A stretch of DNA of 64,000 bases from Amoebophrya sp. A120. Taxonomy: Eukaryota; Protista; Dinoflagellata. The notes under the pieces are model-generated. The model was not told where the DNA came from. It worked only from the letters and a program-made list of their open reading frames with translations, and made no database searches. The position numbers were made by a program, and so were the translations under genes. The DNA is taken from assembly GCA_905178155.1 (NCBI GenBank), contig CAJINV010000011.1, positions 1,015,982 to 1,079,981 of the forward strand, given 5' to 3'. Positions 27,594 to 55,486 of this stretch are shown here, one piece after another. Every line of letters starts with the position of its first letter. The first letter of the stretch is position 1.

Positions 27594-28808
27594 ATGGACA
27601 ACCTTTCCCCCCTTCTCCCCTGGCTCTACATCGGCGACAAGCACGACGCAAAGGATTTGGAAAACTTGAACCGACAAAACATCAAATACATCGTGAACGC
27701 CACCCCGTCGAAAAACGATGGCGGCGTGGCGAATTTCTACGAGAAACAGGGTAGTATTAAGTACCTCCGACTCCCGATGCAGGACAATGCCAGCGAGAAT
27801 TTGAAACAGTGGTACGAGCAGTTTTTCGCTTTTATCGAGCAATGCCGGATCCGGGACGATGGGAGTTTATTGGTCCACTGCAACCAGGGGGTCTCGCGGT
27901 CGGTCTCCTTGGTGATTGCGTATTTGCTGAAGTATTTCCAGTTTGCCGATTTTGAAGCTTGTTTGAGAGAGATAAAAAGGAAATGCAGGGTAAACGCAGA
28001 CCCCAACGACGCGTTTCGCAGGCAGTTGGAGGACTTCACGGCGGATCTGCGTTGTGGAAAGGAAAAGTACGAAAAGGAGGCGCGGAAGGAGGAGCAGGAG
28101 AAGCAGGAACGGAAAAGGAAAATGCAATTGCAAAATGGTGGAAATGCTAGGGCAATTGAGTCTGTTCATCAAGCAGACGTCGAGAACAACAACGCGAAAC
28201 GGAGAAAAGTGGACAACTACATTGGCCCAGCAGCGCTAGGCCCCCCTCCAGCGCCGCGTCCTCAAGTAGGACCGATGAGGCCAGGAACTTCGACGGCAGG
28301 CGCAAATTCACATCCACCTGCTACTGCTAGTACCATCGGCCCAGCCATGGGACCTGCGCTCCCACCTTCAACGATCGGGCCCGCAGCGATCGGACCGCAG
28401 CGGCCCCCTGCCAGTCCCACTGCTCATACGATAGGCCCTAGTACAACAAAAATATTAGGACCACAACCACCGGGTGCGGGAACGACTGCACCTCCGCCGC
28501 AAGTGGGACCCTCATTACAACCCCCAGCAGGAAGTGCTGCCAACATCGGTCCTGCGTTACCCCCCACAGTAGCAGCAACCCCGATAATAAATCTGAATGC
28601 TGGACCAGCTGTTGCCCCTCCCACAATTACCGAAGCCAACCGAATAAAACCCACGTCACCCTCGACACGCGCGTCTTTGTCGGCAGAAAGAGGAAAGACT
28701 TCAAAACTGACTAATGGTAATGACGGTCACGCAGGAACGGCTGCGGCCGCGGCCGGCACAACAAATGATGTGAAAATTATCGGACCCGCTGGCCCTCCGC
28801 CTCCGTAG
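27594..28808 (+). CDS. Dual-specificity protein phosphatase with Pro-rich (IGP-repeat) C-terminal tail, 404 aa
   Basis: PWLYIGD start, LPMQD acid loop, catalytic VHCNQGVSRS (HCX5R), AYLL motif and PNDAFRRQL; single exon. Confidence 0.9.
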   Translation: MDNLSPLLPWLYIGDKHDAKDLENLNRQNIKYIVNATPSKNDGGVANFYEKQGSIKYLRLPMQDNASENLKQWYEQFFAFIEQCRIRDDGSLLVHCNQGVSRSVSLVIAYLLKYFQFADFEACLREIKRKCRVNADPNDAFRRQLEDFTADLRCGKEKYEKEARKEEQEKQERKRKMQLQNGGNARAIESVHQADVENNNAKRRKVDNYIGPAALGPPPAPRPQVGPMRPGTSTAGANSHPPATASTIGPAMGPALPPSTIGPAAIGPQRPPASPTAHTIGPSTTKILGPQPPGAGTTAPPPQVGPSLQPPAGSAANIGPALPPTVAATPIINLNAGPAVAPPTITEANRIKPTSPSTRASLSAERGKTSKLTNGNDGHAGTAAAAAGTTNDVKIIGPAGPPPP

Positions 28809-29609
28809 ATTCAGCTATCCTACAACTAGATAGTAGAAAATGAAAAGGTGAATTACTAGAATTACATCAAGCCTCACTCTCAGCTGAAAGGCAGACACAA
28901 AGCAAGGGCTTTGTAGTGTGTGAGACCGACCAGGCAGACACTGTTTCAGATTCAGTTCTTTTAACCCTAATATGACAGCTGCAATCCGACAACAGCACTA
29001 CGACCAAGATCTTTCCATTTCGGTTTTCTGATCGATAGAAGTATCGGTTTGCTGGATACAGATCCTGATTTACTTACATTACAGCTAGTACACATGTATG
29101 TTGACAATCGGTATGAAGATCAACTTCGGTTTTTTATCCGCAGTCGGTGGCGCGAACCGCGGAGTGATGTGTGCAAGCAGGGTTGTGGAGGTCATCAACC
29201 TCTGCCTTGTACGCCATCGCGCCGGTTATTTCACTATGCCTTTCCAATTCCATGTGCTCCGCGCCCCGTGGTCACGGTTGCAAAAAAAAGGTCCTCATGA
29301 AGAAGAAGGCAATGTTGCGCACGATCTGATCATGCAATGGATTTGTTGCCGCTTTGTTTTCGGTAGTGGTGAGAAGAACGACGGTCGGGCCAGGAATACA
29401 GCTGCGTATTGCAAGGAACATGCAAAAGATAATGATCAAACACTTTTATTAAGCGTAAGCCGATGGACATAGACGACGTCGTGGTGCCTTAGCCTAGTAA
29501 AAGAGCCATTCCGCAACCCCAGCTTCAACGATCGCCTAGTAAAAGAGCCATTCCGCCTAGTAAAAGAGCTCCCACCTTCAACGATCGGGCCCGCAGCGAT
29601 TGGACCGCA

Positions 29610-30222
29610 TAAAGCGTACAGATCCGCGCACGCCCGGTGATCCGCGGTGATCCGCACCTGCGGCAAGTCCTGCAGCGTCTCCACCGGGATCGCGCCTTTT
29701 TCCCCCCTTTCCGGCATACCGACTTGCTCCTGCTTGGACAACGCGCCCGGCCGCTTCAGCTCCTTCTGCTTCTTCTCCGCCTCCAGGCCCTGGCCACCGA
29801 GGTACTGGGAAACGACCGGTTGGTAGGTGGCAATCTTCTCGTCGAGGGTTTTGCCGGAGTCCTTCTTCTTGTTCGCTTTCCTGGTCAAGGCCGTCAGCTC
29901 GTCTTCGTCCTCATCCGGCTCGTCGCCGAGCGCCCGCGGCCAGTCGATCTCCTTGCAGTACCCGCAGATAACCTTCACGCGGTGCGAGTACCGCGCGCGG
30001 AGCATGAAACCCTTGAAGTTCGCTTGCAGTTTGCAGACCAGCGCGAGAATAGCCGTTGGTGCGGCGTTGAGGATCTGCTGCGCCTTCTCCGGGTCGGTCT
30101 TTTCGTACGATTGGGACATCAACGCAAAATTGTGCGTGTTCAGTCCGTCGTCCGGGTGCTCCGGCTTCGGGATCGGGATCTGGCACTGCTGGATGTGTCG
30201 CACGTTGGATTTTGAAATTTTC
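29610..30222 (-). pseudogene. Captured fragment of an IQ-motif-like protein gene
   Basis: ~200 open GC3-rich codons on the minus strand containing KLQANFKGFMLRARY (IQxxxRGxxxR-like). No native start or stop seen; it lies between two copies of the phosphatase 3' region. Confidence 0.55.
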
Positions 30223-31389
30223 GGACCTGCGCTCCCACCTTCAACGATCGGGCCTTCAGCATTGCTGCGCTCCCACCTTCAACGATCGGGCCCGCAGCGA
30301 TTGGACCGCAGCGCCCTCCCGGTGGTTCTACTGCTAATACGGTAGGGCCTACAACAATAGGACCACAACCACCGGGTGCGAGACCTGCACCTCCGCCGCA
30401 AGTGGGACCCTCATTACAACCCCCAGCAGGAAGTGCTGCCAACATCGGTCCTGCGTTACCCCCCACAGCCACAGTAGCAGCAACCCCGATAATAAATCTG
30501 AATGCTGGACCAGCTGTTGCCCCTCCCACAATTACCGAAGCCAACCGAATAAAACCCACGTCACCCTCGACACGCGCGTCTTTGTCGGCAGAAAGAGGAA
30601 AGACTTCAAAAGTGATTAATAACGGTCACGCAGCGGCCCCGGCCGGCACAGCTGCAAATGGATTGCAAATTATCGGGCCCGCTGGCCCTCCGCCTCAGTA
30701 GATTCTGCTATCCTAGTAGATACAGATAGTACGCAAGGTTAATGAGAATTACATCCCGCCTCACTCTCAAGTGAACAAAGGCAGACACAAAGCAAGAGCC
30801 CTGTAGCGTGTGAGACCGAGCAGGCAGACACTGTTTCAACAGATTCAGTTCTTTTGACCCTATGACAGGTCCAATCCGACAACAGCACCGCCAAGATCTT
30901 TCCATTTCGGTTTTCTGACCTATAGAAGTATCGGTTTGGATGCAGATCCTGCTTTACACTACAGCTAGTACACATGCATGTTGACAATCGGTATGATCAA
31001 GTTCGGTTTTTTTATCCGCGATCGCTGGCGCGAAGTGATGTTTCCAAGCAGGGTTGTGGATATCAACCTCTGCCTGGTACGCCATCGCACCGGTTATGCC
31101 TTTCCAATTCCATCTATGCGCTGCGCTCTGCACCCCGTGCTGGTCACGTTTTTCAAAAAAAAGGTCCTCATGAAGAAAAAGGCAATGTTGTGCTGGATCT
31201 GATGCAGTTGAAGACTTGTTGCCGCTTTGTTTTCGGTAGTGGTGAGAAGAACAACGGTCGGGCCAGGAATACAGCTGCGTATAATTGCAAGGAACATGCA
31301 AAAGATGATGATCAATATCAAACATTTTTAAGCCAATAGAGATAGACGTCGACGTCGTGGTGCCTTAGCCTAGTAAAAGAGCCATTCCG
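30223..31389 (+). pseudogene. Diverged duplicate of phosphatase 3' CDS plus downstream region (28350-29513)
   Basis: Colinear similarity with indels and substitutions; lacks the catalytic domain and the start. Confidence 0.85.
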
Positions 31390-31753
31390 GAAGCAAAAAT
31401 TATCGATCTTAGACGATAAAACCTTAATCGTAATCCTAAGTGTGAGTCTAGAAATAATTTATTTGAAATTGACGCTGAGAGGCTTGTGAATTTTTTCAAC
31501 GAACCATACAGCCCCCGCCGGCATTTCACTGGCAGCACGGTGTACATGTGATGTAGGATCCATTTTTGGAGCAGGGCAGCTACAGTTTTGTCGTAAGGCG
31601 AAAAAGTTACCTTTTAATCATGATGTTACTTCAACCCGGGCGAGACCATTGTTGTTCTCGACGGCTTTTATTGGCCTTTCTACCTAAGAGTTGAAACTAG
31701 TTGCAACTCTTTCTTTTAATATCCTGCTGCCACCACACAACTACATCAACAAA

Positions 31754-34700
31754 ATGACGAAGCGTCTCGCCAGGGGCGATGACTTGTACGATTTAAGCAA
31801 CAGCCTGATCCTGCTTTTTGCCATCTTGCTCCTGCTCTACGGGGTGAAAGGCGCCATCCGGGCGTGGCGGGCCTGCTTGAAATGCCGCATTTTGATGCGG
31901 GCCTTCGGGTTTTTCGACCTGAAAGCCCGACAAAATGCGTACGACAACACGGAGGAGGGAAAGCGGAAAAAGCGCGCTTGCACTTGCTGCTTCCGAACTT
32001 GTAGTTCCAGGTGTTGCGAGCGACAGCCAGCAGATGATAGCCCAGACGACATTCGTCTTCGACCCGGGGCGGGCCGCACGACGCAGAGTCAACTGCTACG
32101 GCAGCGTGGCCAAGTTCTAGAAGCAGGAGATGTACAGAAAAAGCCTCTCCTGCAAAGCGGCGCCTCCAATTATGATTATGCTGACGCACGGCGGAACACG
32201 AAATCCACCGCCGCTCCCTACAGTGACTACAATTTTGACACCAGAAACAGAAGCTTCATCGATTCCCAATTCAGTGACGCAGCTCCTGCGCCGACCATCC
32301 ATCCCGAAGAGGGGATCAGTATCTACACCTCAGCAGGCGCAGGAGCTCCTGGCCCTGGCGCACCAGCTTCTATAAGACCGACCCCTCCGACAGAGAGAGA
32401 AAAGGCCGACTGCATCCGCAACATTCTTTCCTACGGCGAACTGCATATTTCCGAGATGAATGCGGACCAGGACGAGGTACAATCCCACGTGTGGAAGGGT
32501 TTTTGGCTGACCGCGTGCATTTTTTTCGGGTTGGTCCGCTTCCAAGACATGAACTACATGTCGCGGGAGCTACTTGATTTGTCCGGCGGGTACGACACCG
32601 GGACGGTGTTCGCACCCCCGGCGATTTGCATCCGCTACTTGCTGGATGTAACTCGGCAGTTCCTTTTGGTCACCGGACTGCTATTCGCCGTGTTCATTCC
32701 GCGGGCGCGACGAAAGGACTACTGGGTCTATGACTTGCCGAAGGACGTGTCGCAGGAGGAACTCGATTTGCTGTTGCGAAACCGCAACGTTGGCTGGATC
32801 GCGTCCGATTCCTGGCACGGGTTCGCCGCAGGGCTGGCGGGCGCGAATGGGGGGATTAGTACACTCTGTCTGATCTCGGACATCTGGGCGAGGTGGACGA
32901 TAGGTACATATTTATCACCAGTACGTGTGGTTTTTTTCCTCTTCTTTTCTCATATGAATGTTGCTTATTGTGATGCTGTTTATCTTTGTGCTCTGGCTCT
33001 CACAATTGCGAAAAAATGAAAAATTATGTCGAAAAAAACAATTTTTCCCCCGAGTGCGGTTTTTAGCAAGGGGTATTCTGGCGACCCGGGTTGCGATCCT
33101 TCTTTATTGGTACTCGCGCGGCTAGCACAACTGGTAGTGCACCCGGTCGACCTCTCTGGAAGCAGGTAGTACGAAAAGATCTAACTGTGGCGCACCTCCG
33201 GGTGCGCGTCGGGGCCGCGCACCTCCGGGATCGATCCTCAACAGGGAAACGAGGTGGAATGGGGGGCGGTAGTCGAGCCGCTCAGGAGAAGGAACAAAAA
33301 ATCGCGGAGTGATCCCCGCACCACCTGAAACAGATCCACAATGCTTCAGAGAGTTACTAGCGCTACCATGGGGCAGGACTGGGGGGTGCAGGTTCGAATC
33401 CTGCAACGCGCATTTTTTTGCGAAGAATCTTGTTCTCTGTGCGATAAGACGAAGAGGAAGGCGAAGATCATCATAACATAAAAAAAATACTCTACATACA
33501 AATAACACCATCAGGCATTGATCCCTACGGGTTTATCCACGAGCGACGGCAGGGTCTCGGCCTCCTCGGAGAAAACACACCCGGGCAAGCCGCACCGGAA
33601 CCCTTTGAGCAGTTCAACCCGTTTGCGCAGTGTCACGACCGCCAGTGGACCGAGGGCTTTATGTGTTTCATGAAGTGCGCCCCCTTCGCGCCGGGCGAGA
33701 AAATTTGGTACTTCTGCCTCGCGTTCCGGACTTGGCTGATGGTATAGTTTGGGTTTTAACCTTGACTTTGTTTCTTGGTACTGCGCATACTTACTTGAGT
33801 CGAAAACGAAATTTCAGTCTAAGTTGTACTCAGTTGCTGCATTCCTTCTGCAGAAGAACGCTAATTATTTTTGCAGCTTCGTCTTCATCTTCTGGGCAAC
33901 TAACTCGGGAACAACTTCACTTTATCAGGTCCTCTATTTTGCCTCAGTGTATACGATGCAGAAGAAGTTTTCGAGTGTGGAGATCGGCAGCACGGCCTTT
34001 TACCGCGGGTTCCGCGCGGAGCTCGCGATCATCAAGATTGCCGCCTGGGAAACCGTGTTTATCGCGTTCGGCGTGTGGTACACACCGCAAGGTCTGTACG
34101 ACTACCTGAATTGGGGCGGTATGGGGAGCCTGCAGATCATGCTGGCCGTCTTCTCCCTCTTCGTGGCGATTAAGGTGTTACACGACAGCTTCTACTGCTC
34201 TTGGGATATCTTCTGTGACTTCGAGTATTCGGAGGAAATCCTCGCGTGGAAGTTCGACCACAGCTGGAGAGACTTCGAGGAAAGCTTGTCCAAGGGGTTG
34301 GTAAGCATCCACGGAACGAGAACGACACACCCACCAAGGGGCGCCATCGAGCTCGAAGAGCTATTGCACATGCCTCCCGACGAATTGGAAATCAACCAGG
34401 TATTACTCTACAAGGCCCGACCGAGCATGACCACGCCCGTGGCCGGCGCCATGGGCAGGTTCGCGACGACGCCTACTTTAGCAGGAGGAACTCGAACTAC
34501 GACAGTGTTCGAAGGAACTAGTACAAGAGAAATAGGGCAGCAAAGTACTAGAAACATAACCGGCGATAATTACGACCCGACTGGCAGAAGTAAAAGGATC
34601 TTGTTCCCGGATCCACCTGGAGTTGTAGTAACGCCCACGATATCCGTTGTGGATGATCATCACCAAGATTATTCGGCGAGTGACGCCGCGAATACAACTA

Positions 34701-37250
34701 AAGCTCGGATGAATAAGCAACAAAGTCGGACTTTTGAACCCAGCTCCTCAACTATCACAAGGAAAAATCCCCCCTCCCCATATCGAAACGAAGTTTCTGA
34801 TGCTGGATTTGCGTACACAAATCAGGTCTGTCTTGCTGGAGAGGACTGCAGGCATATGCCAAGCCTCGGTCGAGAGGTTTTGGCCTAGGCGCTTAGCATG
34901 AGAAACGTCTATGCTGTAGGCCCAACAGCATCACAAACCGCCTGCATAATGCGGCAGAGCCTGTGGGATTGTCTTCTTGCAAGACAGGCGTGATTTGTGG
35001 TCTCAAATCAGCAAGACAAATTTTCGGAAACATACCTTTTCGATATGGGGAGGGGGGATTTTTCCTCTCAGTATCAACCTCATTCGGAGAACTACGAGGA
35101 GCAGGAAGCAATTTCCCAGTAGTCCCCCAACAAGCTATGTCTTCAACGGTCGTTAGCGTACAGAAGTGTGAATTTGCAGTGAATTTGTATTGCATGACTT
35201 GCATTTACTTGAAAGAGAAGAGCGCTAGCGCTACGTATTAGACACACGAGCCCAAGCATCCCACATAGCCTGAAGGGCTGCTCGTCGCGTGGTGGCGCTT
35301 GCAGCACCAAAAGAGGCGGTCTTGCGGGGGCTCGCCGGGCTGTGTAGTGCGTATCTATCGACCAGAGAAGGTGGGTCGGGGGGCTCTTATTCTTCTGCGC
35401 GTCTGCCTCAGAAGTTCCTCTCCGAAATGGTCGAAAGGGAGGGCGACGCCTGAACACAGGGGCACTAGTTCAACACGTGCGCCCTCACGAGTTGTGGTTG
35501 TGGCTTGGAATTGGGTATCTGGGAGCAGCCTCGGGTGGAAGGGGAGGCACGATTCGGCCGCGGACGCTAGCTTGCTTCGCCTGCTGTGCTCGGCTCACAA
35601 CTCCCCACGTGTCTTTTTGCCTCCGGAGCAAGTCTTATTCGACGTGATCCCCAGGTCAAGAATTCCCTTGGTGAATTTTGGGACTTTTTGTTTTGGCGAC
35701 ACTTTGTTGAAGCCCCAAAGCCCGGAGTTTCTCACGCGCTCGCGAATTTTGAAAAGGAGCCGGAGGACAAAATTCACCGGCGTCCTTTTCAAAATTCACC
35801 CCAAAATTCACCGAGCGCCACTTTTCGATCGTGATAAGCAAAGTTTAGCGCAGAAAAGTGCTCAAAAAAACGCACAAGTAGACCCTGGGAAGTGGGGCCG
35901 AGGGGAAAAGACAGGCGCCCGCTGTTGCCCTAAGCGCCTCTATATTCTGCCGAAAAGGCCGGGAGAGTTCACGCGCCTGCCGGATAGACGCGTCAAAGCT
36001 CTCGGCCGGGTCCTTTCGCCTTTGCTTCCGCGCCTTCATCTTGCCTAAACTGCGCTTATGTGCTTCGCGGCTCTTGTTTTTGGCGTGTTTGCCGCGGCTG
36101 CTGCAGTGCTTGCTCTTTTGCAAGCACAGGAAGACGAAAAGACATGGCCAAAGAATGACGCCCGGGCCATGACATGGCCCGGGCGTCATAAGCCTGGACA
36201 ACTAACTTCTGCGGTGTGCAGAACCCACTTCCCAGAAGAGCAAAAGGGACAATGTCCCGGCAGTCTCCTCTGCTATTTGTCATGCAAAATTCACTACAAA
36301 CTCACCACTTCTCATGCTAACGGGTGTTAAAGCTCTAAACCCAGCTCCTCAACCTCATTCGGAGAACTACGAGTATGCTGTGCAAAAGTATCGTACTCGT
36401 ATAAATGCATTACAAATTGCATCAGCATGACAAAAAGAATTTGTCATGCTGTTTTCGATTGGGATGGAGATTTGTAATGCATAATTGCAATTCATACGAG
36501 TACGATACTTTTGCACAGGATAACGAGGAGCAGGAAGCAATTTCCCAGTAGTCCCCCAACAAGCAGTATCCAAGAAAAAAACGTTGTTAGTGTAAATCTG
36601 TGATGCGCAACATGCAAGACGATTGCGTCTGTCATGCTTGGCATGCATCGTAGGGTCCAATAAAGGGCGTTTTCGCGTACTATCTGCGCATGACAGGTTT
36701 TTGCTGTCATGCCAGACATATTTGTAATGCTGTTCCTCCAAAGAAGTTACACCTACAATGTTTTTTTCTTGGATAAGCAGGTCAGCCTCTCCTGCAGCCC
36801 GGCTTGGAGCTTTCTTTCTCGCCACCTCAAGGCCCCCGCCGCTATTCGAACGCATACTATCCAATACAGAACCAATCTGGCCAGACCAACGCTTCAGGAA
36901 TTATGGAGCAGCAAGACAGGATGAATTTAAATTTAACCTCCTCGCAGGCGAAGCGGAGACTCCAAAACGACAACCCGTGGCTTGACGCGCAGTTAGTTCG
37001 CGCGCTCTCTATCCGGGATGTGTCTCAACAGCAAGGACTCGTGGCCCAAGGAATCAACGGTAATATGGTCGTGCCGCAAAGTAATAGTGGGACGTATTTC
37101 ATTGCAGCAGAAGTAGAAGATGTTGGAGCTCCTGCTGGTGGTGTGATGGAGTACACCACTAGTACACGACGCGCAGAGGAGCAGCAACATCAGCAACCTG
37201 AAGGAGAGCAGGCCCCGTTGGAGGAGGACTTTCTACTTCCAAAAATTTGA
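31754..37250 (+). CDS. Multi-pass membrane protein of unknown function (3' splicing unresolved)
   Basis: Exons 31754-32903, 33515-33741 and 33929-34748 joined by GT-AG introns in frame, then 35075-35135. The natural frame continues at 36777-37250. Several hydrophobic segments. How the 35136-36337 insertion and duplicated exon are removed is unclear; the alternative is a stop at 35241. Confidence 0.6.
33116..33412 (+). ncRNA. tRNA-shaped RNA with ~230-nt insert in place of the anticodon loop (intronic, Pol III-like)
   Basis: GCGCGGC-TA-GCAC-AACTGGTA-GTGC-A-CCCGG ... CTGGG-GGGT-GCAGG-TTCGAAT-CCTGC-AACGCGC-A followed by T7. D arm, anticodon stem and T arm pair; acceptor stem 5/7. Confidence 0.6.
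34753..35073. mobile_element. Introner, family E-like (321 bp)
   Basis: Inverted AGGAAAAATCCCCCCTCCCCATATCGAAA arms; TSD TCAAC/TCAAC; empty site visible at 36349-36353. Confidence 0.92.
35136..36337. mobile_element. 1.2-kb TIR element flanked by a 73-bp exon duplication
   Basis: Left end TATGTCTTCAACGGTCGTTAGCGTACAGAAGTG...GCATGAC is an imperfect inverse of right end GTCATGC...CACTTCTCATGCTAACGGGTGTTAAAGCTCTA; no recognisable transposase. Confidence 0.75.
36374..36522. mobile_element. Introner, family B (149 bp)
   Basis: TATGCTGTGCAAAAGTATCGTACTCGTAT TIR; TSD ACGAG/ACGAG; empty site visible at 35094-35098; repeated at 46144-46292. Confidence 0.95.
36567..36775. mobile_element. Introner, family G (209 bp)
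   Basis: TATCCAAGAAAAAAAC...GTTTTTTTCTTGGATA; TSD AGCAG/AGCAG; repeated at 46337-46545. Confidence 0.92.
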
Positions 37251-37970
37251 TGACGCAGCTCCCTGCTTTTGAAATATAAAATTTTGGAGTACTACACGAA
37301 AGAAAAATCACGATGTCGTGTAAGTTTCTGACTCGAGGTTGTCGTCTAACATTTTGACCACAAGTAGCTTAGTACGAGGAGATCGCATAGAAGTTTTAAC
37401 TCCTCACTCGTGTATGATGCTGTTGAGGATGAAATCGTGCAAATTTAGGTCAATCAAACGAAGTAAGTGTCTTTTATTTGACCTAAGCGACATATACGAC
37501 AACGACTACGACAAGAACGTACTAGGTGCAGGTAGTTGTACCCACTGGTATTACAACCAAGATGCAGCTCTCAGTGAGCTTGCCAGCCAACAAGCCCTGT
37601 ACTAGAAAATGAAAATAGAAGCGATTCGCGCAAAAAAGACAGCCTCCTTGCTGCGCCAAGAAAAGAAAGGCCCAGGCTCCGATGTTGCAGTCTTGAACGA
37701 CCCTCGATGTTCAATAGCAGCGACATGCTCGCTTGCAACAACGACACTTCGACGCTCCTGTTTCGCCCGCCGTTCTTGTGAAAACGATGGTGCGTGCACA
37801 CTGCTTAAGTGCCGTGTTGTGTCGTGGCCGCTGACTTGAGTGGCGTTTTGAAAGGTAACAAGGTTACCATAGGCGTCGACTGACACGGAAGTAGTCCTCG
37901 ATAACTACCACTGCATGAAGACGAAGAACAAGAGGGAATGCAAGCTCAACCCAGCAGCTAGTACGTGACT

Positions 37971-40078
37971 ATGGCCGCCTCTGCTGATGTTGGGGAACAG
38001 GACGGCCAGGGCACTGCGTCTGTTGCCGATGGAGGTGGTACGGAAAATCTTCAGCCTGCCGCATTGCAGGATCAAACCGCTACAACGCCTCGCCCCTGGG
38101 GTTTGCATTTCCCCGACATCTGGATAAACATTTCCCGGGGGGATGGGTCTGCAGAGGTGGCGGAAAAATTGCAGGAAGAACGGAAAGACGCTGTTGCCGA
38201 GCTTGCTGTGCGATATTTCGCGTGTACAACAGCATCATCTTCTGCGGGACCACAGCATGAAGAGCCGCCTGTTGACGAAGAAGTTAGATTGTCAACGGAG
38301 GATATCCAAGGAAAAAGGAATTACAGTTACACATTTGTAGTGAATTCAGCATCACGATCACAAATTTGCCTTGTAATGCAGGGATCATAAGGCAAAACAC
38401 ACGCAAAACGAGACCTGCAAGCATTTTGAGCATGACAGAGGTCGTCTGTCTTGCATGTCTTGCAACACAATGTCAATGTGTAGCTTTAACACTCTTTTCG
38501 TTGCATAGAGGACATTCTTGTTGACCCTTTGGAAGGCGGAATCTCCAACTTGCTCTACAAGGCAACGAACAATAAAGGCGGCGCAGCAGGAAAAAATGCG
38601 GAGAGCAGTCACGCCAATAGTTGTACAGCCCATACCGCAGTCCTAATTCGTCTCTTCGGCGACAGTAAGACGAAAAAAGCCATGTCCGTGTGTGAGCGGA
38701 CCACGGAAAACCAAATCTGCTACGATTTGTTCGCAAAAGCAGACATCGGAGCGGGGGTGCTTGCGACATTCGCGAATGGAAGAATAGAGCGGTTCTTCAC
38801 GGGGTCAAGGGCGTTGGAGCCGACCGAAATGCTTGTTGGAGAGATTTCCGTGCAGATTGCCAAGAAACAAGCGGAGTTTCATCAGGTATAATAATAATTC
38901 GTTTTCGAGTGTAGTTTTGGGTCAGTTGTTACCATCTCAAGCTCGACTACATGAGCATGTTGGTTTGGTTTGGTACGCGCAATGGAACTGCATAAGTACT
39001 GGCTTGTTTTTACTTCCCAGTAGTCAGTACTTACTGCCTGCTCAACTTTCTCTTCTAACCACAGGTGGCCTTCGACGTTTCCTCTCGGCCAGCGAAGAAC
39101 GAAGCCAGCACGAAAACGACACCCAAAAGCGAGATCTGGAGCAAACTGCACGACTGGGTTGAGAAGGCTCGTCACGCCGCAGCCTCGCCGAAGGCGCAAA
39201 ACAGGCTAGATGTCGAAGAGCTGAGCGCCGAGCTCGCATTTTGGGAAACGTGGTTTGCGAAAATCGACGAGGAAAATAATGACGCTGCGAGCGAGCAGGA
39301 GAAGGAGAAGATCACCACCATTACACCAAGAACATCATCCGAAAAAAGATTATCCGACTACAACACCGCACGCCGATTTTGGAGCGAAGTAGTCTTCTGT
39401 CACCAGGATCTCCTCGGAGGCAACGTGCTGGTAGATGAGCAGAACAAAACCGCAAGTACAACTACTTCTGCTGACACGACAAACACGAAGGAAATGAAAA
39501 TCAACAAAAACTCCATGCGATTGATCGACTTCGAGTACGCGTGCTGGAACCACCGGGGTCACGACATCGCGAACCACTTCAACGCGATACCGGAGTCGAT
39601 GCTTATCGTCGCGAACAAGTTTGACCCGGATGAATTTTTTCCGAGTAGGGAGCACGTGAAGAAGTACGTGGCAAGTTACCTGCAGGAGCTTTTCAAGATA
39701 AAGCACGGCATAAGTAAAGATGAAACTGCAGAGCAGGCTGCAGTAGAAAATGCTCAGCCGCAAATGGACTCGTCCTCCACCTCCGCGGTCGTCGAGGTCC
39801 TCACTTCCGACTCCGGGCTCGACGCGCTCCTCGAGTACTGCCCTTTGGCCGAGCTGTACTGGATCCTCTGGGCGGTGATTCTTAGCGCCACGTCCGATGT
39901 GGGCTTTGACTACCAGAACTACGCCGAAATGCGGTGGAACGCGGGGTACAAAAAGTACAAAAAGGAAGTGCTCGCGAGAAGAGAAAACCTGCTAGAGGCA
40001 GCTGGTTCGTCGAATAGTAAAAGACCGAAGAGCACCTTCTGCGCGTTTGGAGGTGGCTCTTGCGCGCGCGCGAAGTGA
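37971..40078 (+). CDS. Choline/ethanolamine kinase, 572 aa
   Basis: Exons 37971-38298, 38509-38885, 39065-40078; LEGGISNLLY, Brenner-type VFCHQDLLGGNVL and LIDFEYACWNHRGHDIANHF motifs. Confidence 0.9.
38303..38507. mobile_element. Introner, family G-like (205 bp)
   Basis: TATCCAAGGAAAAAG...CTTTTCGTTGCATA; TSD GAGGA/GAGGA; restores TEDILVDPLEGG; repeated at 48073-48277. Confidence 0.9.
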
Positions 40079-40935
40079 TTCCATTTGCGCTATATTCATA
40101 TCCGTGTGGGTAAAAACAACTAACTTTGAATTTTTGACAACTAAGCGCCTGCTTCGAGTTCTTGTTCTGTGACCAAAAGTACCACCAGTGCATTTTAGTA
40201 GTGATGAACGCCAACGCGATAGAATGAAGATGTTGTGGTCGACCATGCGGGTGCCGTGACCCTAGCAGTGCATTACATAAAAGTTTTTCAAAAGTACATC
40301 GTTTCGACGACGTGATCTATTTCTTGCGATCGCAGCTTTTTTCTGCTTCCAGCAACAGTGTCTGGACAAATCGGTTCTGGGGAAGATATCTTCACTTCAA
40401 ACCATTTACATCCAGAAAACATTTTCGACACTGAAGTGTTGGAGAAAGCTTCGTTTCGATAGTTTGCCTCTGTGAATATCCGAGCTGTAGTGGTGGCACT
40501 AAAAAACCGGATTTACTGAACTTTCAGAGAGTCAGGATGTGGCACTGAGTCACGACGTTATTCTTATTTCTAAAAGAAGAGAGTACCTATAATTGGAAGG
40601 GCGGGCCGGCGCATGTTCGGAGTGTAAACAAAGACGAGAGTTATGATGTTCAAGTAGCAGCGTTGAGGTTGCACATCTTGTTGTCACGAGTAGAGCTACA
40701 CCTACACTGCGCATCATTAAAAATGCTGGCATTGTGGATGCTTCATTCGTCGCTGCACAGACACGACTCATCCTGGCTGAGGAAGAGAACTTCGCCATGT
40801 GTAACTGGAGGAGCACAGCGTACACCTGCCAGTCGTGCTGAACCGCGGGTCACGACCACCGCGTCAACCTCAACCGGGCTGTCGTCTTCGTGGTAGGCAG
40901 AGGTGTATCCCATCCGCAACCAGCACTAGTGGATC

Positions 40936-43900
40936 ATGCTGGAAGCCCCTACAGGAACGAGCGGCGCGCCCGTGCGGCGCATGTCGCGGTCGATGACGAC
41001 CATTCAGAATCCTGACGGCGGACCGACTCTTTTACGCGAATCTGGCCAGCTATGGAACTGTCAGGATCGAAATCGTCAAAGTTGAAATAATTTGTCATGC
41101 ATAAAATGCAAGGCACGAAGTGCCTGTCTTGCCGGGATGGCAAATGAGGCCGATTGTGAGCCTGTTTCGGGTTTGAAATAGAGCTGCTAAAGTAGCATGA
41201 CAAAAGCAGTCTTCTGTGCGCAAACAGCATGACAAATTGGATTCCGATGCTCGGAAAATTTGTCATGCGCCGCTTGATATGTGGGCTTCCGACTGGCATC
41301 CATTTTATGCATGACAAACTATTTCAATTTCAACTTTGACGATTTCAATCCTGACACGCCCATAACAGCCCTCGCAACCCTTTGTTCGAAGCGTGCGACG
41401 CTCGCAAACACGGCCGGAGTCAGACTTGCTGGATCCAGGTACAACTATGGTGGTAGGGCACAATTACCAAACGATAGCATATGAGAAAATAAATGACAAC
41501 AGTGTAACATCAGAGCCACTAGATCTAGAACTAGCAGTAGTTTTGCATAATCAATACACCCACACACGACCATCAGGTGGGCTCATGGTGGGCAGTCCGA
41601 ACCGTCGGAGCTTCCTTCGCCCCCAGCTCTCCCGCCAGGGCACCCTGGATTCCCCGGAGAGTCGCCGCGCGTCCGTGGTCGCCGGGCCACCGCCGTCGTC
41701 CAGAGACATGATGGGCGGAGGAGTAGGTGGGACTGACATCATCGAGGCCAGCGAGCGGGAAAGTTTGAAGGGCGGCGGCGGTGGGGGGCAACCGCAGCAC
41801 CAGCACCACGGCTTTGGGTTCCGGTCGACGAGCAGGTCGAGAATATGGGACGACGTGCAGGAGGGGAATAATTTGCTGAAAACGTTTTTGGAACCGACAG
41901 GAAACAGTCCGGCGAAGGGAATAGGTTTCTGGTTTTTTCTTTGATTTTTGTGATTGTATGAAAGCGGGAACGAACGAACGTGTGGAAGTAGCCAGTGTAC
42001 CCTTCTTTCCAACGACAATCTCAAGCTGCATCTGCTTTTTGGATATCAAGTAAAAAAGCAGTTGCACAAATAGTCGCAGGACACACTAATCGCACTCGCA
42101 CATCACCAGATAGCAGAAAACATATCAACACCGGCAGTTCCCCGCGCCAACTCGCAGACCCAGCTGGACAAGATTCTTCACCACGGTGGGTTATCAAATG
42201 CAAAAATGTCTGGGTCTGGAGGAGTGGAAACTTGTCATGCATATTTCCATGTCCCAGGAGGTTTGGCATGCAGGAGCTAGCATGACAGATTCTGCGAAGT
42301 CTCTATCAAGCCTATCCTGCATGACAAACTGCCACGAAACTTGTTCAAACGTGGACACCTTTTGGTAATCATGCAACACAAATTTTTGCACTATCCAGAC
42401 TTAGCATGACAAGTTCCAACCTTCCAGACCCAGACATTTTTGCATTTGATACGGGTCGGTTCTGGACAACATTCACGAGGTGGTGAACGAAGTGAAGCTC
42501 ATGGACAGCCAGAATCCGCATTCTCTAAGAGCCTTTGTCGCGAAGAAGAAGCTGCTGCTCTGGCTGTTCATGGAAGAACCGTTTCTCACCCCGGTTTCCA
42601 CGGCTTACTCCCTCGGGATGATTGTGCTGGTCGTGTTTGGGTTTTACACTGCAGTGAAGCCACAGGTACTCATTTTTACGAGCATTCAGAACAACTGCTG
42701 CGATTTCTTGCAATGCTGTGAATGCTGCGAATGTTGTGTTTGTGATGCATAAAAATAAAATTAAAAGCAATTATGACGACAAAAACTAGACCTACGAAGC
42801 CTTCACCGGTGAGTTCCACGATACCGCCTGGGTGGAGGAGAAGCTTTTTTGGTGGACGTTCGCAATTAACCTCATCTGCACGCTGGAGACCGCACTACGC
42901 TTCTCGGTCGCACCGGTGAAGATGAAGTTCATAAACCAAGTTTCGAACCTGTTCGACATTCTGGCGGTGCTCCCCTTCTGGATCAACAATTGTTTCCGGC
43001 TAGACAAACACGTCTCCCCCGGCCTCCGTTACATCTCCGTTTTCGGTGCGGTTTTCTGGTTGGTCAAGCTCTGCAGATATTTCCCAGGTTGGTACCTACT
43101 CCGCATGGCATTGCGGAACAGCATGGCGGCTTTGTTAATCCCGGTGTTTTTCCTGTTGATGATGGGTGTTGCGGGGGCGTCGCTCGTGTTGACGTTTGAC
43201 TGGATTTCTGCCGTGAACGGCGGGATCCCCTTGCAGATCTCTTCCTGGATGAAGGCTTTTCACTACATCATGGTGGTCACCATCTCCATCGACGTATCAC
43301 CAGTTTACGGGACCGCGGCGCAATCCGCCTTGGCGCAAGCGATCGCGGTGTTGTGGATGTATTTGGGTGTGATTTTCCTCTCCATGCCCATCGCAATCGT
43401 GGGAACGTGCTTCTCCCAGACCTGGTTCGACCAGGACAGAATCGTGTTAGTGGAGAAGGTCCGATCGAGAATGCGGCAGCAGGGGTACACGACGGACGAC
43501 TTGCGGGAGGTTTTTGACGAGGTGGATGAGGACGGGTCAGGCGAGATCGATTTCTACGAGTTCAAGCGCATGCTCGAAGCGTTCCACTTCTTCGCGCCGA
43601 TCGGGAAAACGAGGAAACTCTTCAACCACTTCGATACTAATGGGACAGGCTCAATAAGTTATCAGGAGTTCGTCTGCGTCATTTTTCCCGAGATCACCGA
43701 CATTGTCGACTGGGACACGCAACGGGTGGATCGAGACGCTTTGGAGGTGATAGAGGAGGTGGAATCCGATTTGGAAGAAGACTCCTCCGCCCTGTACAGC
43801 AGTACCGGCAGTAGTGGTGCGGATGATGAGAGCTCGGAGTCGTTTCTGCAAAAACGATCTAGATCGCAGTCGTTGGACAAAAAGTCGGTGAACTTTTCGA

Positions 43901-45574
43901 AGACAAGTAGCGAAGACGAGGAGGAGGACGAGGATGGGCCGGCGCGGTTGAGCATCCCGGGGCTGATATCGAAGGGAAAATTGGTCGTGCACAATCCTCT
44001 AAAGGAAGAAAAGCCTGATGCTGGTCGTGAACCGCCTGATAAAGACAATAAGAGTGCAACTACAGCTGCAACAGTAGGAGCTGCATCAGAACCACCTCCA
44101 CCAGCAGATGACAGCACAGCCGGCGGGGGTGGCGAAAATGGTACAGATGATGCAAAAGCGGAACAAGGCGTGGTCACGCAACAAGACAACCCCACTCCCG
44201 ACTTGAACGACAGTAGCATGTTGATCAACGTTCCAGATCATGACACCTCTTTCGCATCATCCGGGAAAAAAAATCAAGCCACGTCACAGAAACAAGCACC
44301 AGGCGGCACAAATCCACGCGAGGAAATCGGCGGTAGCTCTGGATCTTCAAAAAACTCAAAGGAAGAGCAGGCGGACAACCCAGCAGATCCGAATCCTGCG
44401 TCACCAATGGCAGCAGGAGCCAATGACGCCCCACCACCTCAGAAAAACGGCGAAGAAACTTCTACCCAAGTAGAAATGAAGCCAGAATCACCGCCTCCCG
44501 ACGACCCCGTCCCGGAGCGCGTTGTCCCGCGCAGAAGGCAGCAGAGCAGTACCGCCCGTCCGAGGATTGGCACAGTGGAGTCCGTAGCATCACGAGCGTC
44601 GAGGCGGTCCACGCGGTCCGGGAGGCGAAGCAGGCGGGAGAGCAGTGGTCGGCGGTCGTCTAATCGCGACGAAAACGGCGGGAATTCCGCAGTAGAGAAG
44701 AACAGCTCCCTGGTTTCGGCGTTGAGCGTCGCGGCGTTAAATCTGGGGAAAGCGGCAATACGAAGAGGAAGCTCCATGGTATCGATTTTGGCTGTGAGAA
44801 GATGATGCTCTACCATGTTGCAACATTTTCATCCACCTCGCAGAATTTTGATTTTTTAGTAGAGGTGTCGCACAGTAGAAGCACTCCTGCAAACCGCAAT
44901 CGCACTACACAGGTTTCCCTCGGACCCAACGACGAGGAACTGCTGGGTCAAAACATCGTGGTGGACAAGGGCGTAATGCGCCGGACCCGGTCTACCGACG
45001 GCTTTGCGGCGGGCTCGCTCACCGGCAGCTTGGGGCTTGCCTCCGGCGGAACCAGTCCGCCGCCACGGGGCGGCGCGCTGGCCGCCATGGCCTCTGGTGG
45101 TAGATACTAACTTTTTGCCGAAAAAATTATCGGGAAGATGATCTTGATGGAAGACATGCAAGTGCCGATGTAGTATTTCTTCTAGTGAAGAACAAGCTCC
45201 TTGTTCGAAAACAAAAAATCGCACCCACCCCTGGAGGTTCCTCCATTACAACAGGTCCGATCCCACGCGGCAGACGTTCGGGTGGAGAGCAGCTACAATC
45301 AAGACCTTCTGGCGGCGCAGCAACGGCCAGTTCCACCAAATCTTCTGCCAGACCACTTGAACAAGCCGTCGACGGAAATATTAATCTCGTCCCTGTTGCT
45401 CGCACTCTTTCCGCCGGCGCCGCCAGGGTGTCTCCGGCCAGTGGCGCTGCCGGCATTTTCAGTTCCCTGTTTGGTCGGAGTTCTTCGAGGAAGACCGACG
45501 CAGCGAGGGGGGCCCCAGAGATCACGACAAGCGCTGCGATGGGGGGAGGTGGAGGTGGAATCGTGCCAACAACA
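40936..45574 (+). CDS. Kv-like channel with EF hands, copy truncated at the assembly gap
   Basis: Same sequence as 50706-55344; runs into a family A introner (45579-45716) cut by the N gap. Confidence 0.6.
41051..41364. mobile_element. Introner, family H (314 bp)
   Basis: TATGGAACTGTCAGGATCGAAATCGTCAAAGTTGAAAT TIR; TSD CCAGC/ACAGC; restores ESGQPSQP; repeated at 50821-51134. Confidence 0.9.
42192..42451. mobile_element. Introner, family A (260 bp)
   Basis: TATCAAATGCAAAAATGTCTGGGTCTGGA TIR; TSD TGGGT/CGGGT; restores HGGSVLDN; repeated at 51962-52221. Confidence 0.93.
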
Positions 45575-45716
45575 AGCATATCGAATGTAAAAATGTCTGG
45601 GTCTGGAACATTCTGACGCTTGTCATGCACGTTTTGCATGAGCCCTGATGTCTGTGATGCATGCCCTAGCATCACAGATTTTTTCAGAGCTTCTTGATGC
45701 CTATTCCGCATGACAA

Positions 45717-45816
45717 NNNNNNNNNNNNNNNNNNNNNNNNNNNNNNNNNNNNNNNNNNNNNNNNNNNNNNNNNNNNNNNNNNNNNNNNNNNNNNNNNNNN
45801 NNNNNNNNNNNNNNNN
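45717..45816. other. Scaffold gap (100 N)
   Basis: Run of 100 n. Confidence 1.
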
Positions 45817-48800
45817 AAACTGCGCTTATGTGCTTCGCGGCTCTTGTTTTTGGCGTGTTTGCCGCGGCTGCTGCAGTGCTTGCTCTTTTGCAAGCACAGG
45901 AAGACGAAAAGACATGGCCAAAGAATGACGCCCGGGCCATGACATGGCCCGGGCGTCATAAGCCTGGACAACTAACTTCTGCGGTGTGCAGAACCCACTT
46001 CCCAGAAGAGCAAAAGGGACAATGTCCCGGCAGTCTCCTCTGCTATTTGTCATGCAAAATTCACTACAAACTCACCACTTCTCATGCTAACGGGTGTTAA
46101 AGCTCTAAACCCAGCTCCTCAACCTCATTCGGAGAACTACGAGTATGCTGTGCAAAAGTATCGTACTCGTATAAATGCATTACAAATTGCATCAGCATGA
46201 CAAAAAGAATTTGTCATGCTGTTTTCGATTGGGATGGAGATTTGTAATGCATAATTGCAATTCATACGAGTACGATACTTTTGCACAGGATAACGAGGAG
46301 CAGGAAGCAATTTCCCAGTAGTCCCCCAACAAGCAGTATCCAAGAAAAAAACGTTGTTAGTGTAAATCTGTGATGCGCAACATGCAAGACGATTGCGTCT
46401 GTCATGCTTGGCATGCATCGTAGGGTCCAATAAAGGGCGTTTTCGCGTACTATCTGCGCATGACAGGTTTTTGCTGTCATGCCAGACATATTTGTAATGC
46501 TGTTCCTCCAAAGAAGTTACACCTACAATGTTTTTTTCTTGGATAAGCAGGTCAGCCTCTCCTGCAGCCCGGCTTGGAGCTTTCTTTCTCGCCACCTCAA
46601 GGCCCCCGCCGCTATTCGAACGCATACTATCCAATACAGAACCAATCTGGCCAGACCAACGCTTCAGGAATTATGGAGCAGCAAGACAGGATGAATTTAA
46701 ATTTAACCTCCTCGCAGGCGAAGCGGAGACTCCAAAACGACAACCCGTGGCTTGACGCGCAGTTAGTTCGCGCGCTCTCTATCCGGGATGTGTCTCAACA
46801 GCAAGGACTCGTGGCCCAAGGAATCAACGGTAATATGGTCGTGCCGCAAAGTAATAGTGGGACGTATTTCATTGCAGCAGAAGTAGAAGATGTTGGAGCT
46901 CCTGCTGGTGGTGTGATGGAGTACACCACTAGTACACGACGCGCAGAGGAGCAGCAACATCAGCAACCTGAAGGAGAGCAGGCCCCGTTGGAGGAGGACT
47001 TTCTACTTCCAAAAATTTGATGACGCAGCTCCCTGCTTTTGAAATATAAAATTTTGGAGTACTACACGAAAGAAAAATCACGATGTCGTGTAAGTTTCTG
47101 ACTCGAGGTTGTCGTCTAACATTTTGACCACAAGTAGCTTAGTACGAGGAGATCGCATAGAAGTTTTAACTCCTCACTCGTGTATGATGCTGTTGAGGAT
47201 GAAATCGTGCAAATTTAGGTCAATCAAACGAAGTAAGTGTCTTTTATTTGACCTAAGCGACATATACGACAACGACTACGACAAGAACGTACTAGGTGCA
47301 GGTAGTTGTACCCACTGGTATTACAACCAAGATGCAGCTCTCAGTGAGCTTGCCAGCCAACAAGCCCTGTACTAGAAAATGAAAATAGAAGCGATTCGCG
47401 CAAAAAAGACAGCCTCCTTGCTGCGCCAAGAAAAGAAAGGCCCAGGCTCCGATGTTGCAGTCTTGAACGACCCTCGATGTTCAATAGCAGCGACATGCTC
47501 GCTTGCAACAACGACACTTCGACGCTCCTGTTTCGCCCGCCGTTCTTGTGAAAACGATGGTGCGTGCACACTGCTTAAGTGCCGTGTTGTGTCGTGGCCG
47601 CTGACTTGAGTGGCGTTTTGAAAGGTAACAAGGTTACCATAGGCGTCGACTGACACGGAAGTAGTCCTCGATAACTACCACTGCATGAAGACGAAGAACA
47701 AGAGGGAATGCAAGCTCAACCCAGCAGCTAGTACGTGACTATGGCCGCCTCTGCTGATGTTGGGGAACAGGACGGCCAGGGCACTGCGTCTGTTGCCGAT
47801 GGAGGTGGTACGGAAAATCTTCAGCCTGCCGCATTGCAGGATCAAACCGCTACAACGCCTCGCCCCTGGGGTTTGCATTTCCCCGACATCTGGATAAACA
47901 TTTCCCGGGGGGATGGGTCTGCAGAGGTGGCGGAAAAATTGCAGGAAGAACGGAAAGACGCTGTTGCCGAGCTTGCTGTGCGATATTTCGCGTGTACAAC
48001 AGCATCATCTTCTGCGGGACCACAGCATGAAGAGCCGCCTGTTGACGAAGAAGTTAGATTGTCAACGGAGGATATCCAAGGAAAAAGGAATTACAGTTAC
48101 ACATTTGTAGTGAATTCAGCATCACGATCACAAATTTGCCTTGTAATGCAGGGATCATAAGGCAAAACACACGCAAAACGAGACCTGCAAGCATTTTGAG
48201 CATGACAGAGGTCGTCTGTCTTGCATGTCTTGCAACACAATGTCAATGTGTAGCTTTAACACTCTTTTCGTTGCATAGAGGACATTCTTGTTGACCCTTT
48301 GGAAGGCGGAATCTCCAACTTGCTCTACAAGGCAACGAACAATAAAGGCGGCGCAGCAGGAAAAAATGCGGAGAGCAGTCACGCCAATAGTTGTACAGCC
48401 CATACCGCAGTCCTAATTCGTCTCTTCGGCGACAGTAAGACGAAAAAAGCCATGTCCGTGTGTGAGCGGACCACGGAAAACCAAATCTGCTACGATTTGT
48501 TCGCAAAAGCAGACATCGGAGCGGGGGTGCTTGCGACATTCGCGAATGGAAGAATAGAGCGGTTCTTCACGGGGTCAAGGGCGTTGGAGCCGACCGAAAT
48601 GCTTGTTGGAGAGATTTCCGTGCAGATTGCCAAGAAACAAGCGGAGTTTCATCAGGTATAATAATAATTCGTTTTCGAGTGTAGTTTTGGGTCAGTTGTT
48701 ACCATCTCAAGCTCGACTACATGAGCATGTTGGTTTGGTTTGGTACGCGCAATGGAACTGCATAAGTACTGGCTTGTTTTTACTTCCCAGTAGTCAGTAC

Positions 48801-54800: not shown

Positions 54801-55486
54801 TGGGGCTTGCCTCCGGCGGAACCAGTCCGCCGCCACGGGGCGGCGCGCTGGCCGCCATGGCCTCTGGTGGTAGATACTAACTTTTTGCCGAAAAAATTAT
54901 CGGGAAGATGATCTTGATGGAAGACATGCAAGTGCCGATGTAGTATTTCTTCTAGTGAAGAACAAGCTCCTTGTTCGAAAACAAAAAATCGCACCCACCC
55001 CTGGAGGTTCCTCCATTACAACAGGTCCGATCCCACGCGGCAGACGTTCGGGTGGAGAGCAGCTACAATCAAGACCTTCTGGCGGCGCAGCAACGGCCAG
55101 TTCCACCAAATCTTCTGCCAGACCACTTGAACAAGCCGTCGACGGAAATATTAATCTCGTCCCTGTTGCTCGCACTCTTTCCGCCGGCGCCGCCAGGGTG
55201 TCTCCGGCCAGTGGCGCTGCCGGCATTTTCAGTTCCCTGTTTGGTCGGAGTTCTTCGAGGAAGACCGACGCAGCGAGGGGGGCCCCAGAGATCACGACAA
55301 GCGCTGCGATGGGGGGAGGTGGAGGTGGAATCGTGCCAACAACAAGCATATCGAATGTAAAAATGTCTGGGTCTGGAACATTCTGACGCTTGTCATGCAC
55401 GTTTTGCATGAGCCCTGATGTCTGTGATGCATGCCCTAGCATCACAGATTTTTTCAGACCTTCTTGATGCCTATTCCGCATGACAA
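45817..55486 (+). repeat. 9.67-kb near-identical duplication, copy 2
   Basis: Matches 36047-45716 at offset 9,770. Confidence 0.95.
47741..49848 (+). CDS. Choline/ethanolamine kinase (duplicate copy, probably the same locus)
   Basis: Same as 37971-40078. Confidence 0.75.

What the first reader, a model, noticed from the sequence alone, without database searches (positions are those of the whole stretch)
34737..36780. Filled and empty insertion sites side by side in a duplicated exon
Seen: the 73-nt exon segment AACCCAGCTCCTCAACC...CAACAAGC occurs twice. Copy 1 (34737-35135) has a 321-bp element at TCAAC and a single ACGAG; copy 2 (36338-36564) has a single TCAAC and a 149-bp element at ACGAG. 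The exon bases are otherwise identical. This directly shows that the 5-mers are insertion-generated duplications and that gain (or precise loss) outpaces point mutation. Inference: very recent activity, or two haplotypes with different introner content joined together.
Basis: seen in the sequence. Interest (0 to 1): 0.78.

Follow-up and report, generated by a model that had tools for sequence, protein, structure and literature searches.

The report
Intron-making transposon that duplicates exons
A 1.2-kb repeated element sits between two identical copies of a 73-base exon piece and is spliced out so that the RNA keeps both copies, adding a predicted 22-amino-acid repeat; two other copies of the element are also flanked by long duplications, so it likely makes them when it inserts, and two small intron-forming elements likely landed in the copies afterwards.

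Summary
The 1,202 bp between the two exon copies (M, 35136-36337) is a multi-copy element with ~60-bp imperfect terminal inverted repeats. Both other full-length M copies found (L001, L002) also sit in reading frames between long direct repeats (54 and 50 nt). RNA contigs of two samples (one study) join copy 1 to copy 2: M plus 7 nt is removed as a non-canonical 1,209-nt intron, and both copies stay as an in-frame 66-nt (22-codon) duplication. The copies therefore share one transcript; they are not joined haplotypes. The same offsets would leave 60 and 48 nt, also in frame, at L001 and L002 (untested). 'Gain outpaces mutation' is only suggestive: both copies are coding and these elements cluster. 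Likely mechanism: M makes 50-73-bp target duplications, and flexible splicing turns them into peptide repeats. Published introner duplications are 3-9 bp. New variant of a known kind.

The parts
31754..37250 (+). Host gene, unknown predicted membrane protein; coding blocks about 31754-32905, 33514-33743, 33929-34752, then the duplicated piece, then 36781-37250
   Evidence: tblastn of homolog P0001 hits 31760-32905, 33514-33729, 33932-34426 and 36942-37010 in order; no Pfam family
34737..35135 (+). Copy 1 of the 73-nt exon piece, interrupted by E1; its last base (35135) goes into the M intron
34753..35073 (+). E1, 321-bp introner, 29-bp perfect inverted repeat, 5-bp duplication TCAAC (34748, 35074)
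   Evidence: DNA-run depth far above the flank; absent from the RNA contigs
35136..36337 (+). Element M, 1,202 bp, ~60-bp imperfect terminal inverted repeats, multi-copy, no transposase match; left end uncertain by 1 nt
35135..36343 (+). 1,209-nt non-canonical intron (ends CT...CA): M plus 1 nt on the left and 6 nt on the right; no shift ambiguity
   Evidence: 60-nt junction contig in RNA runs X3 and X6, mapped
36338..36564 (+). Copy 2 of the 73-nt exon piece, interrupted by E2; first 6 nt intronic
36374..36522 (+). E2, 149-bp introner, 33-bp inverted repeat (94%), 5-bp duplication ACGAG (36369, 36523)
36567..36775 (+). E3, 209-bp introner, 29-bp inverted repeat (90%), 5-bp duplication AGCAG
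   Evidence: RNA joint 36560->36775 skipping 214 nt in X3

Best explanation
A 1.2-kb repeated inverted-repeat element (M) lies between two identical 73-nt exon copies and is spliced out with only 7 flanking bases, so the RNA keeps a 66-nt in-frame duplication; M likely created the duplication when it inserted, and introners E1 and E2 likely inserted afterwards, one into each copy. SHOWN: the anatomy; M is multi-copy; 3 of 3 full-length M copies examined carry long flanking direct repeats; the splice junction and two-copy RNA at this locus; E1, E2 and E3 are absent from the RNA contigs. INFERRED: (1) M is mobilised in trans as DNA, and its two ends are joined to target strands about 50-75 bp apart (widely staggered or uncoupled strand transfer; the 9-13 filler bases at two copies point to repair synthesis). 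(2) The splicing machinery cuts close to the element's ends, guided by the terminal stem, so it cannot remove a long duplication; exonic insertions survive mainly when the leftover is a multiple of three. (3) The two-copy RNA is translated into a 22-residue tandem repeat. (4) Short introners then inserted 36-62 bp from M's ends, in line with their clustering.
For:: M has TA...TA ends and inverted repeats above shuffles. DNA run X1 depth over M's interior bins is 632-1449 against 25-31 on unique flanks (the tool warns this is no copy number; it shows repetition); the 2 of 2 loci returned by the M-pattern scan hold end-to-end M copies (82% identical), each between direct repeats of 54 and 50 nt with 1 mismatch (flank scores 104 and 95 against shuffle maxima 29 and 27), inside reading frames and in the same orientation as here. 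Control: short elements have 5-bp repeats, exact in 15 of 29 catalogue rows; the junction contig has depth 330 in X3 (226 upstream, 334 downstream) and the 66-nt unit 742; in X6 13 and 49 (17 and 34); frame open through the junction; the motif conserved with P0001 at 36942-37010 is reached in that frame; the same offsets leave 60 and 48 nt at L001 and L002 and keep the frame; +5 offsets break it. The similar sizes (50, 54, 73) favour a duplication of bare exon DNA followed by two gains over a 227- or 399-bp duplication followed by losses.
Against: Only three M copies were seen and no empty allele. L001 can also be read as a 57-nt tandem repeat plus a 9-nt duplication. Two of two in frame has chance 1/9. 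The RNA data are assembled contigs from two samples of one study, labelled RNA by guess (though they skip introns); a one-copy isoform cannot be excluded, and X6 depths allow a mixture. DNA run X1 laid no contig on 35074-35127, so the junctions between M and the two copies are not confirmed by DNA reads. No transposase or autonomous partner was found. Two insertions in 146 nt with no substitution is unlikely under uniform insertion (P about 0.001) and needs clustering or ascertainment.
Confidence: 0.68

Rival explanations
1. M makes only a short duplication. The long repeats are older tandem repeats that M targets, or they arise after insertion by repair (abortive excision, gap repair primed at the element's ends).
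For: L001 reads as a 57-nt tandem unit plus a 9-nt duplication; filler bases at L001 and L002. The second long repeat at 7785/8832 flanks a different element with a truncated right end.
Against: At the window locus M lies exactly between the two units with no short duplication or filler. All three M copies abut the repeat boundary within 13 nt. No short element in the catalogue has a long repeat.
Confidence: 0.12
2. M's two ends were joined to two different alleles (or a later crossover within M combined them), one allele already carrying E1 and the other E2. The filled and empty sites would then be older allelic polymorphisms frozen on one chromosome.
For: Removes the need for two new insertions within 146 nt before any substitution (uniform-insertion P about 0.001).
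Against: Strong clustering already makes nearby insertion likely. Long repeats at 3 of 3 copies suggest a routine property, not a rare two-molecule event. No single-copy allele was seen (no hits; not proof of absence).
Confidence: 0.1
3. M is a non-autonomous retro-element inserted by target-primed reverse transcription, which can give long variable duplications (recalled for some non-LTR elements; not from a call).
For: Variable duplication length; filler bases; same orientation relative to the host gene in 3 of 3.
Against: All three copies are full length with the same ends, have ~60-bp terminal inverted repeats and no poly-A tail.
Confidence: 0.06
4. Assembly artefact or two haplotypes joined; the RNA junction would be back-splicing or exon repetition from a single-copy gene.
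For: The scaffold has a 9,670-bp near-exact duplicate across a 100-N gap nearby. The M junctions were not shown in DNA contigs.
Against: The RNA junction falls 1 nt before and 6 nt after M, as a splice of M predicts, at about full depth. The DNA contig from the left flank enters E1 unbroken, and no DNA joint 34736->36338 is listed. The same anatomy occurs in two contigs of another record set.
Confidence: 0.04

Closest known systems
Amoebophrya introner elements (Farhat et al. 2021, PMC7789003)
   Same: Non-canonical repeated introns with inverted repeats and 3-5-nt direct repeats. The A120 motif (TAT, 7 nt, AAA) is met by E1, E2 and E3. The host gene's homolog P0001 is named Amoebophrya sp. 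A120 by its source.
   Different: M is 1.2 kb, lacks the AAA of the motif, has 50-73-nt repeats, and leaves the duplication in the RNA. The paper's supplementary legends tally repeats of 3-8 nt only.
Aureococcus introners that add codons (Gozashti et al. 2022, PMC9860276, Fig. 2F-G)
   Same: Insertion plus splicing leaves the target duplication in the mRNA and adds residues.
   Different: There: a fixed 12 bp (8-bp duplication), 4 residues, element carries both splice sites. Here: variable 48-66 nt (16-22 residues; 66 shown, the others predicted), non-canonical ends.
IS1549 and IS1634 long variable direct repeats (as summarised in PMC2266710)
   Same: Inverted-repeat elements flanked by long variable-length repeats (8-514 bp); that paper states no mechanistic model had been proposed.
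   Different: Bacterial, autonomous, transposase-encoding, not spliced. No sequence link to M was tested.
Polarella glacialis introner-like elements (bioRxiv 10.1101/2020.10.14.339549)
   Same: Dinoflagellate introners with flexible splice position relative to the insertion site.
   Different: Duplications of 3-8 nt in the passages read; GT/GC/GA donors and AG acceptors.

Membership tests
Amoebophrya A120-type introner (E1, E2, E3) | Terminal inverted repeat of 8 nt or more | tested here: met
   29, 33 and 29 bp
Amoebophrya A120-type introner (E1, E2, E3) | 3-5-nt direct repeat at the boundaries | tested here: met
   5 bp each
Amoebophrya A120-type introner (E1, E2, E3) | End motif TAT + 7 nt + AAA | tested here: met
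   Motif column against section 11 of PMC7789003
Amoebophrya A120-type introner (E1, E2, E3) | Repeated in the genome and removed from RNA | tested here: met
   Depth over 24,000 against about 25 in X1; RNA contigs lack all three
Introner, broad sense (element M) | Repeated element whose exonic insertion is spliced out | tested here: met
   RNA shown at one locus only
Amoebophrya A120-type introner (element M) | 3-5-nt direct repeat | tested here: not met
   Repeats of 73, 54 and 50 nt
Amoebophrya A120-type introner (element M) | End motif TAT + 7 nt + AAA | tested here: not met
   Begins TAT but positions 11-13 are not AAA; the right end is not a full mirror
MITE of a classified DNA-transposon superfamily (element M) | Terminal inverted repeats and no transposase | tested here: met
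   longest stop-free frame 259 codons here against 188 in the other copies, no Pfam match
MITE of a classified DNA-transposon superfamily (element M) | Short fixed-length target duplication | tested here: not met
   Variable, 50-73 nt plus filler
MITE of a classified DNA-transposon superfamily (element M) | Autonomous partner with the same ends | not testable with these tools
   No genome held for this window
IS1549/IS1634 long-repeat elements (element M) | Long variable-length direct repeats | tested here: met
   3 of 3 copies; a functional likeness only
IS1549/IS1634 long-repeat elements (element M) | IS1634-family transposase in a prokaryotic host | tested here: not met
   No transposase match; intron-containing eukaryotic gene; 0 hits of an M pattern in genome contigs

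The most novel reading that the evidence does not exclude
Amoebophrya carries a class of ~1-kb introners whose transposition makes 45-75-bp target duplications. Because splicing cuts at the element's ends, each surviving exonic insertion writes a new intron and a 15-22-residue tandem repeat into the protein at once. It would be a transposon-driven, genome-wide source of peptide repeats that contributes to the rapid protein divergence reported for this genus, and a eukaryotic handle on how long variable duplications form.
Probability: 0.5. Interest if true: 0.85.

Novelty: new variant of a known kind. Interest (0 to 1): 0.74.

Why it matters
Introners are thought to insert almost silently, with 3-9-bp duplications removed by splicing (PMC9860276). 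Here one family appears to duplicate 50-73 bp of exon and leave it in the RNA, coupling intron gain to protein tandem-repeat birth. The junction also shows where this unusual splicing system cuts when a direct repeat cannot be removed: next to the element's stem, at CT...CA ends, with no register ambiguity. Standard 5-bp introners hide this. The duplicated piece also acts as a dated pair of sites that records two later insertions. All of it can be tested on the other M copies in the source genome.

Tried and rejected
My first reading (joint 34736->36338 means a single-copy mRNA) was wrong: that contig holds only 36 letters past the joint and equals E1 removal; one search showed the two-copy form. 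A 7-nt-shorter GT-AG isoform that fitted the same contig breaks was not seen. Run X13 (raw RNA, same species label) laid 0 reads and estuary run X9 laid 0 contigs: no test. 5 of the 15 listed runs were laid. No wild or empty allele: 0 hits for an exon pattern in metagenome contigs. 0 hits for an M pattern in viral contigs and genome contigs. Rfam gave only a sub-threshold MIR828 hit on E2's hairpin (32.7 against 69 bits); no tRNA. P0002 and P0003 match only the read-through of E1 (P0004 and P0005 not inspected). No homolog for the gene at the second long repeat. Atlas lead TMEM117 for P0001 (0.84) was not backed by Pfam. The 46-nt repeat at 7785/8832 was dropped from the frame count because its element boundary is uncertain (44 or 46). 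A 1,116-bp candidate at 25404 had no flanking repeat and was rejected. One search was flooded by the N run and redone. Earlier-findings look-ups returned nothing.

Full report
OBSERVATION. Removing E1 (34753-35073, 321 bp) with one TCAAC from copy 1, and E2 (36374-36522, 149 bp) with one ACGAG from copy 2, gives two identical 73-nt strings. A third element, E3 (36567-36775, 209 bp, 5-mer AGCAG), starts 2 nt past copy 2. All three begin TAT, have AAA at positions 11-13, and have 29-33-bp inverted repeats. This is the motif described for Amoebophrya A120 introner families (PMC7789003; I read sections 10-12, the abstract, search passages, and supplement passages holding figure legends only). The host gene spans about 31754-37250. 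The longer-length search (1 hit among 3,953 candidates) returned P0001, named Amoebophrya sp. A120 by its source, 43-57% identical over four blocks in order. I infer an Amoebophrya of that type; no genome is held for the window.

The 1,202 bp between the copies (M, 35136-36337) starts and ends with TA and has ~60-bp imperfect inverted repeats: score 59 against a shuffle maximum of 46 in 500. In DNA run X1 the depth over its interior bins is 632-1449 against 25-31 on unique flanks (the tool warns this is not a copy number). A metagenome scan with a 23-nt pattern from M returned 2 loci. Both hold end-to-end copies, 1,189 and 1,193 bp, 82% identical, with the same ends. Both lie between long direct repeats: 54 nt plus 13 filler bases in L001, and 50 nt plus 5 in L002, one mismatch each (scores 104 and 95 against shuffle maxima 29 and 27 in 300). 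Both interrupt reading frames in the same orientation as here. So 3 of 3 M copies examined have long repeats. As a control, the catalogue has 29 rows (24 window, 5 in L001/L002). 15 have exact 5-bp repeats, 7 more match at 4 of 5, 4 are nested re-calls, and 3 have poorer flanks. None showed an exact repeat above 5 bp.

RNA. Runs X3 and X6 (two samples, one study, labelled RNA by guess) behave as spliced RNA: their contigs leave the DNA at the GT-AG intron before 33929, and X3 skips E3 (36560->36775, 214 nt). I first read the joint 34736->36338 as a single-copy mRNA. That was wrong: the contig has only 36 letters past the joint, which E1 removal alone gives. The second lay (35058-35162) gave 4 contigs in X3 and 3 in X6. 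Both runs hold a 60-nt contig joining 35105-35134 to the sequence of 36344-36373 (mapped), at depth 330 in X3 (226 upstream, 334 downstream) and 13 in X6 (17, 34). The 66-nt shared unit has depth 742 and 49, about twice the flanks. So the mature RNA passes through the segment twice. The intron is 35135-36343 (1,209 nt, ends CT...CA, no shift ambiguity): M plus 1 nt on the left and 6 nt on the right. The leftover is 66 nt and the frame stays open, reaching the motif shared with P0001 at 36942-37010. A standard +5 removal would shift the frame. Contigs drop rare forms and cannot exclude a one-copy isoform; X6 depths allow a mixture. The same offsets leave 60 and 48 nt at L001 and L002 and keep the frame, whereas +5 or +0 break it. 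This is a prediction, with chance 1/9.

ONE MOLECULE OR TWO HAPLOTYPES. The RNA junction needs both copies on one transcript. In DNA run X1 a contig runs from 33800 into E1 (to 34779, 0 differences, depth 25), another from E3 to 37400, and no DNA joint 34736->36338 is among the listed rows (92 rows not shown). Against: X1 laid nothing on 35074-35127, so the M junctions are not confirmed by DNA reads. X1 may be the source of the assembly. The scaffold carries a 9,670-bp duplicate (36047-45716 = 45817-55486, one difference) across a 100-N gap, probably a scaffolding artefact; it does not include copy 1.

TIMING. Other elements show 7 mismatches in 75 duplicated bases (15 elements, E1-E3 left out), so many are older, while the 73-nt pair has none. 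That favours a young duplication (P 0.0008 if all sites were free, 0.10 if only third positions are). Two insertions in 146 nt would have P about 0.001 under uniform insertion. But elements cluster: outside this locus 4 of 15 gaps are 100 nt or less against 0.49 expected (P 0.0009, 16 elements). E1 ends 62 nt from M and E2 starts 36 nt from it. 'Gain outpaces mutation' is thus plausible locally but not established.

MECHANISM. Most likely (0.68), M is mobilised in trans as DNA and its ends join target strands 50-75 bp apart; repair fills the gap and sometimes adds filler. Splicing cuts near the terminal stem (predicted end-to-end pairing -40 kcal/mol, no shuffle control), cannot remove a long repeat, and selection keeps insertions whose leftover is in frame. 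E1 and E2 then inserted, one per copy. The similar repeat sizes at three sites favour this over a larger duplication followed by two precise losses. The strand-transfer step, the mobilising enzyme, translation of the repeat and the order of events are inferred. Rivals: pre-existing or repair-made repeats (0.12; L001 also reads as a 57-nt tandem unit plus a 9-nt duplication), joining of two alleles by M (0.10), retro-insertion (0.06), artefact (0.04).

COMPARISON. E1-E3 are ordinary members of a known kind. M meets the broad introner definition but fails the 3-5-nt repeat and the end motif of the A120 families. The nearest precedent for added residues is an Aureococcus introner adding 12 bp (PMC9860276, passages, which gives 3-9 bp for introner duplications). 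The nearest for long variable repeats is IS1549/IS1634, 8-514 bp with no model (PMC2266710, passages). Passages of PMC12130899, the Polarella preprint and the review PMC11282704 mention no long duplications. Nine literature searches found no report of introners with long duplications kept in mRNA. The library lacks most subscription papers, and the datasets of PMC12130899 were not read and may list this family.

VERDICT. A real feature, and more interesting than first read: a new variant of introner, shown at one locus by RNA and at three by DNA anatomy. Interest 0.74.

Noticed in passing
window 7785-8877: A second long exact repeat inside a reading frame (46 nt, 7785-7830 = 8832-8877) flanks a different ~1-kb fold-back element whose right inverted repeat looks truncated by about 7 nt. 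Removing the element plus 1, 4 or 7 nt would keep the frame. RNA not checked.
   Followed up: partly
window 36047-55486: 9,670-bp duplicate with one difference across a 100-N gap (45717-45816); probably a scaffolding overlap. Everything in it is counted twice in the window.
   Followed up: partly
window 28354-31392: Tandem pair of ~1.2-kb segments, 83% identical, with small internal repeats.
   Followed up: no
window 59517-61069: Degenerate ~150-nt tandem repeats, probably coding; no link to an element checked.
   Followed up: no
window-wide: Introners cluster: several lie 31-80 nt apart, and DNA contigs of X1 show many element-to-element gaps of 9-36 letters (table 5c).
   Followed up: partly
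window 35135, run X1 contigs: Four of five short M-start contigs also match the C just before M, so M's left end may be 1 nt further out (duplication 72 nt, intron starting at the element's end); L001 and L002 have T and A there.
   Followed up: partly
proteins P0002, P0003: Unrelated database proteins end in the read-through translation of an E1-family element; probably gene models with an unspliced introner.
   Followed up: no
run X3 record of 4,077 nt: An RNA contig from another locus reads into the start of an M-family copy; the same flank occurs in a 20.8-kb DNA contig of X1.
   Followed up: no
protein P0001 and host gene 31754-37250: Atlas lead to TMEM117 (score 0.84, lead only); not supported by Pfam.
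   Followed up: partly
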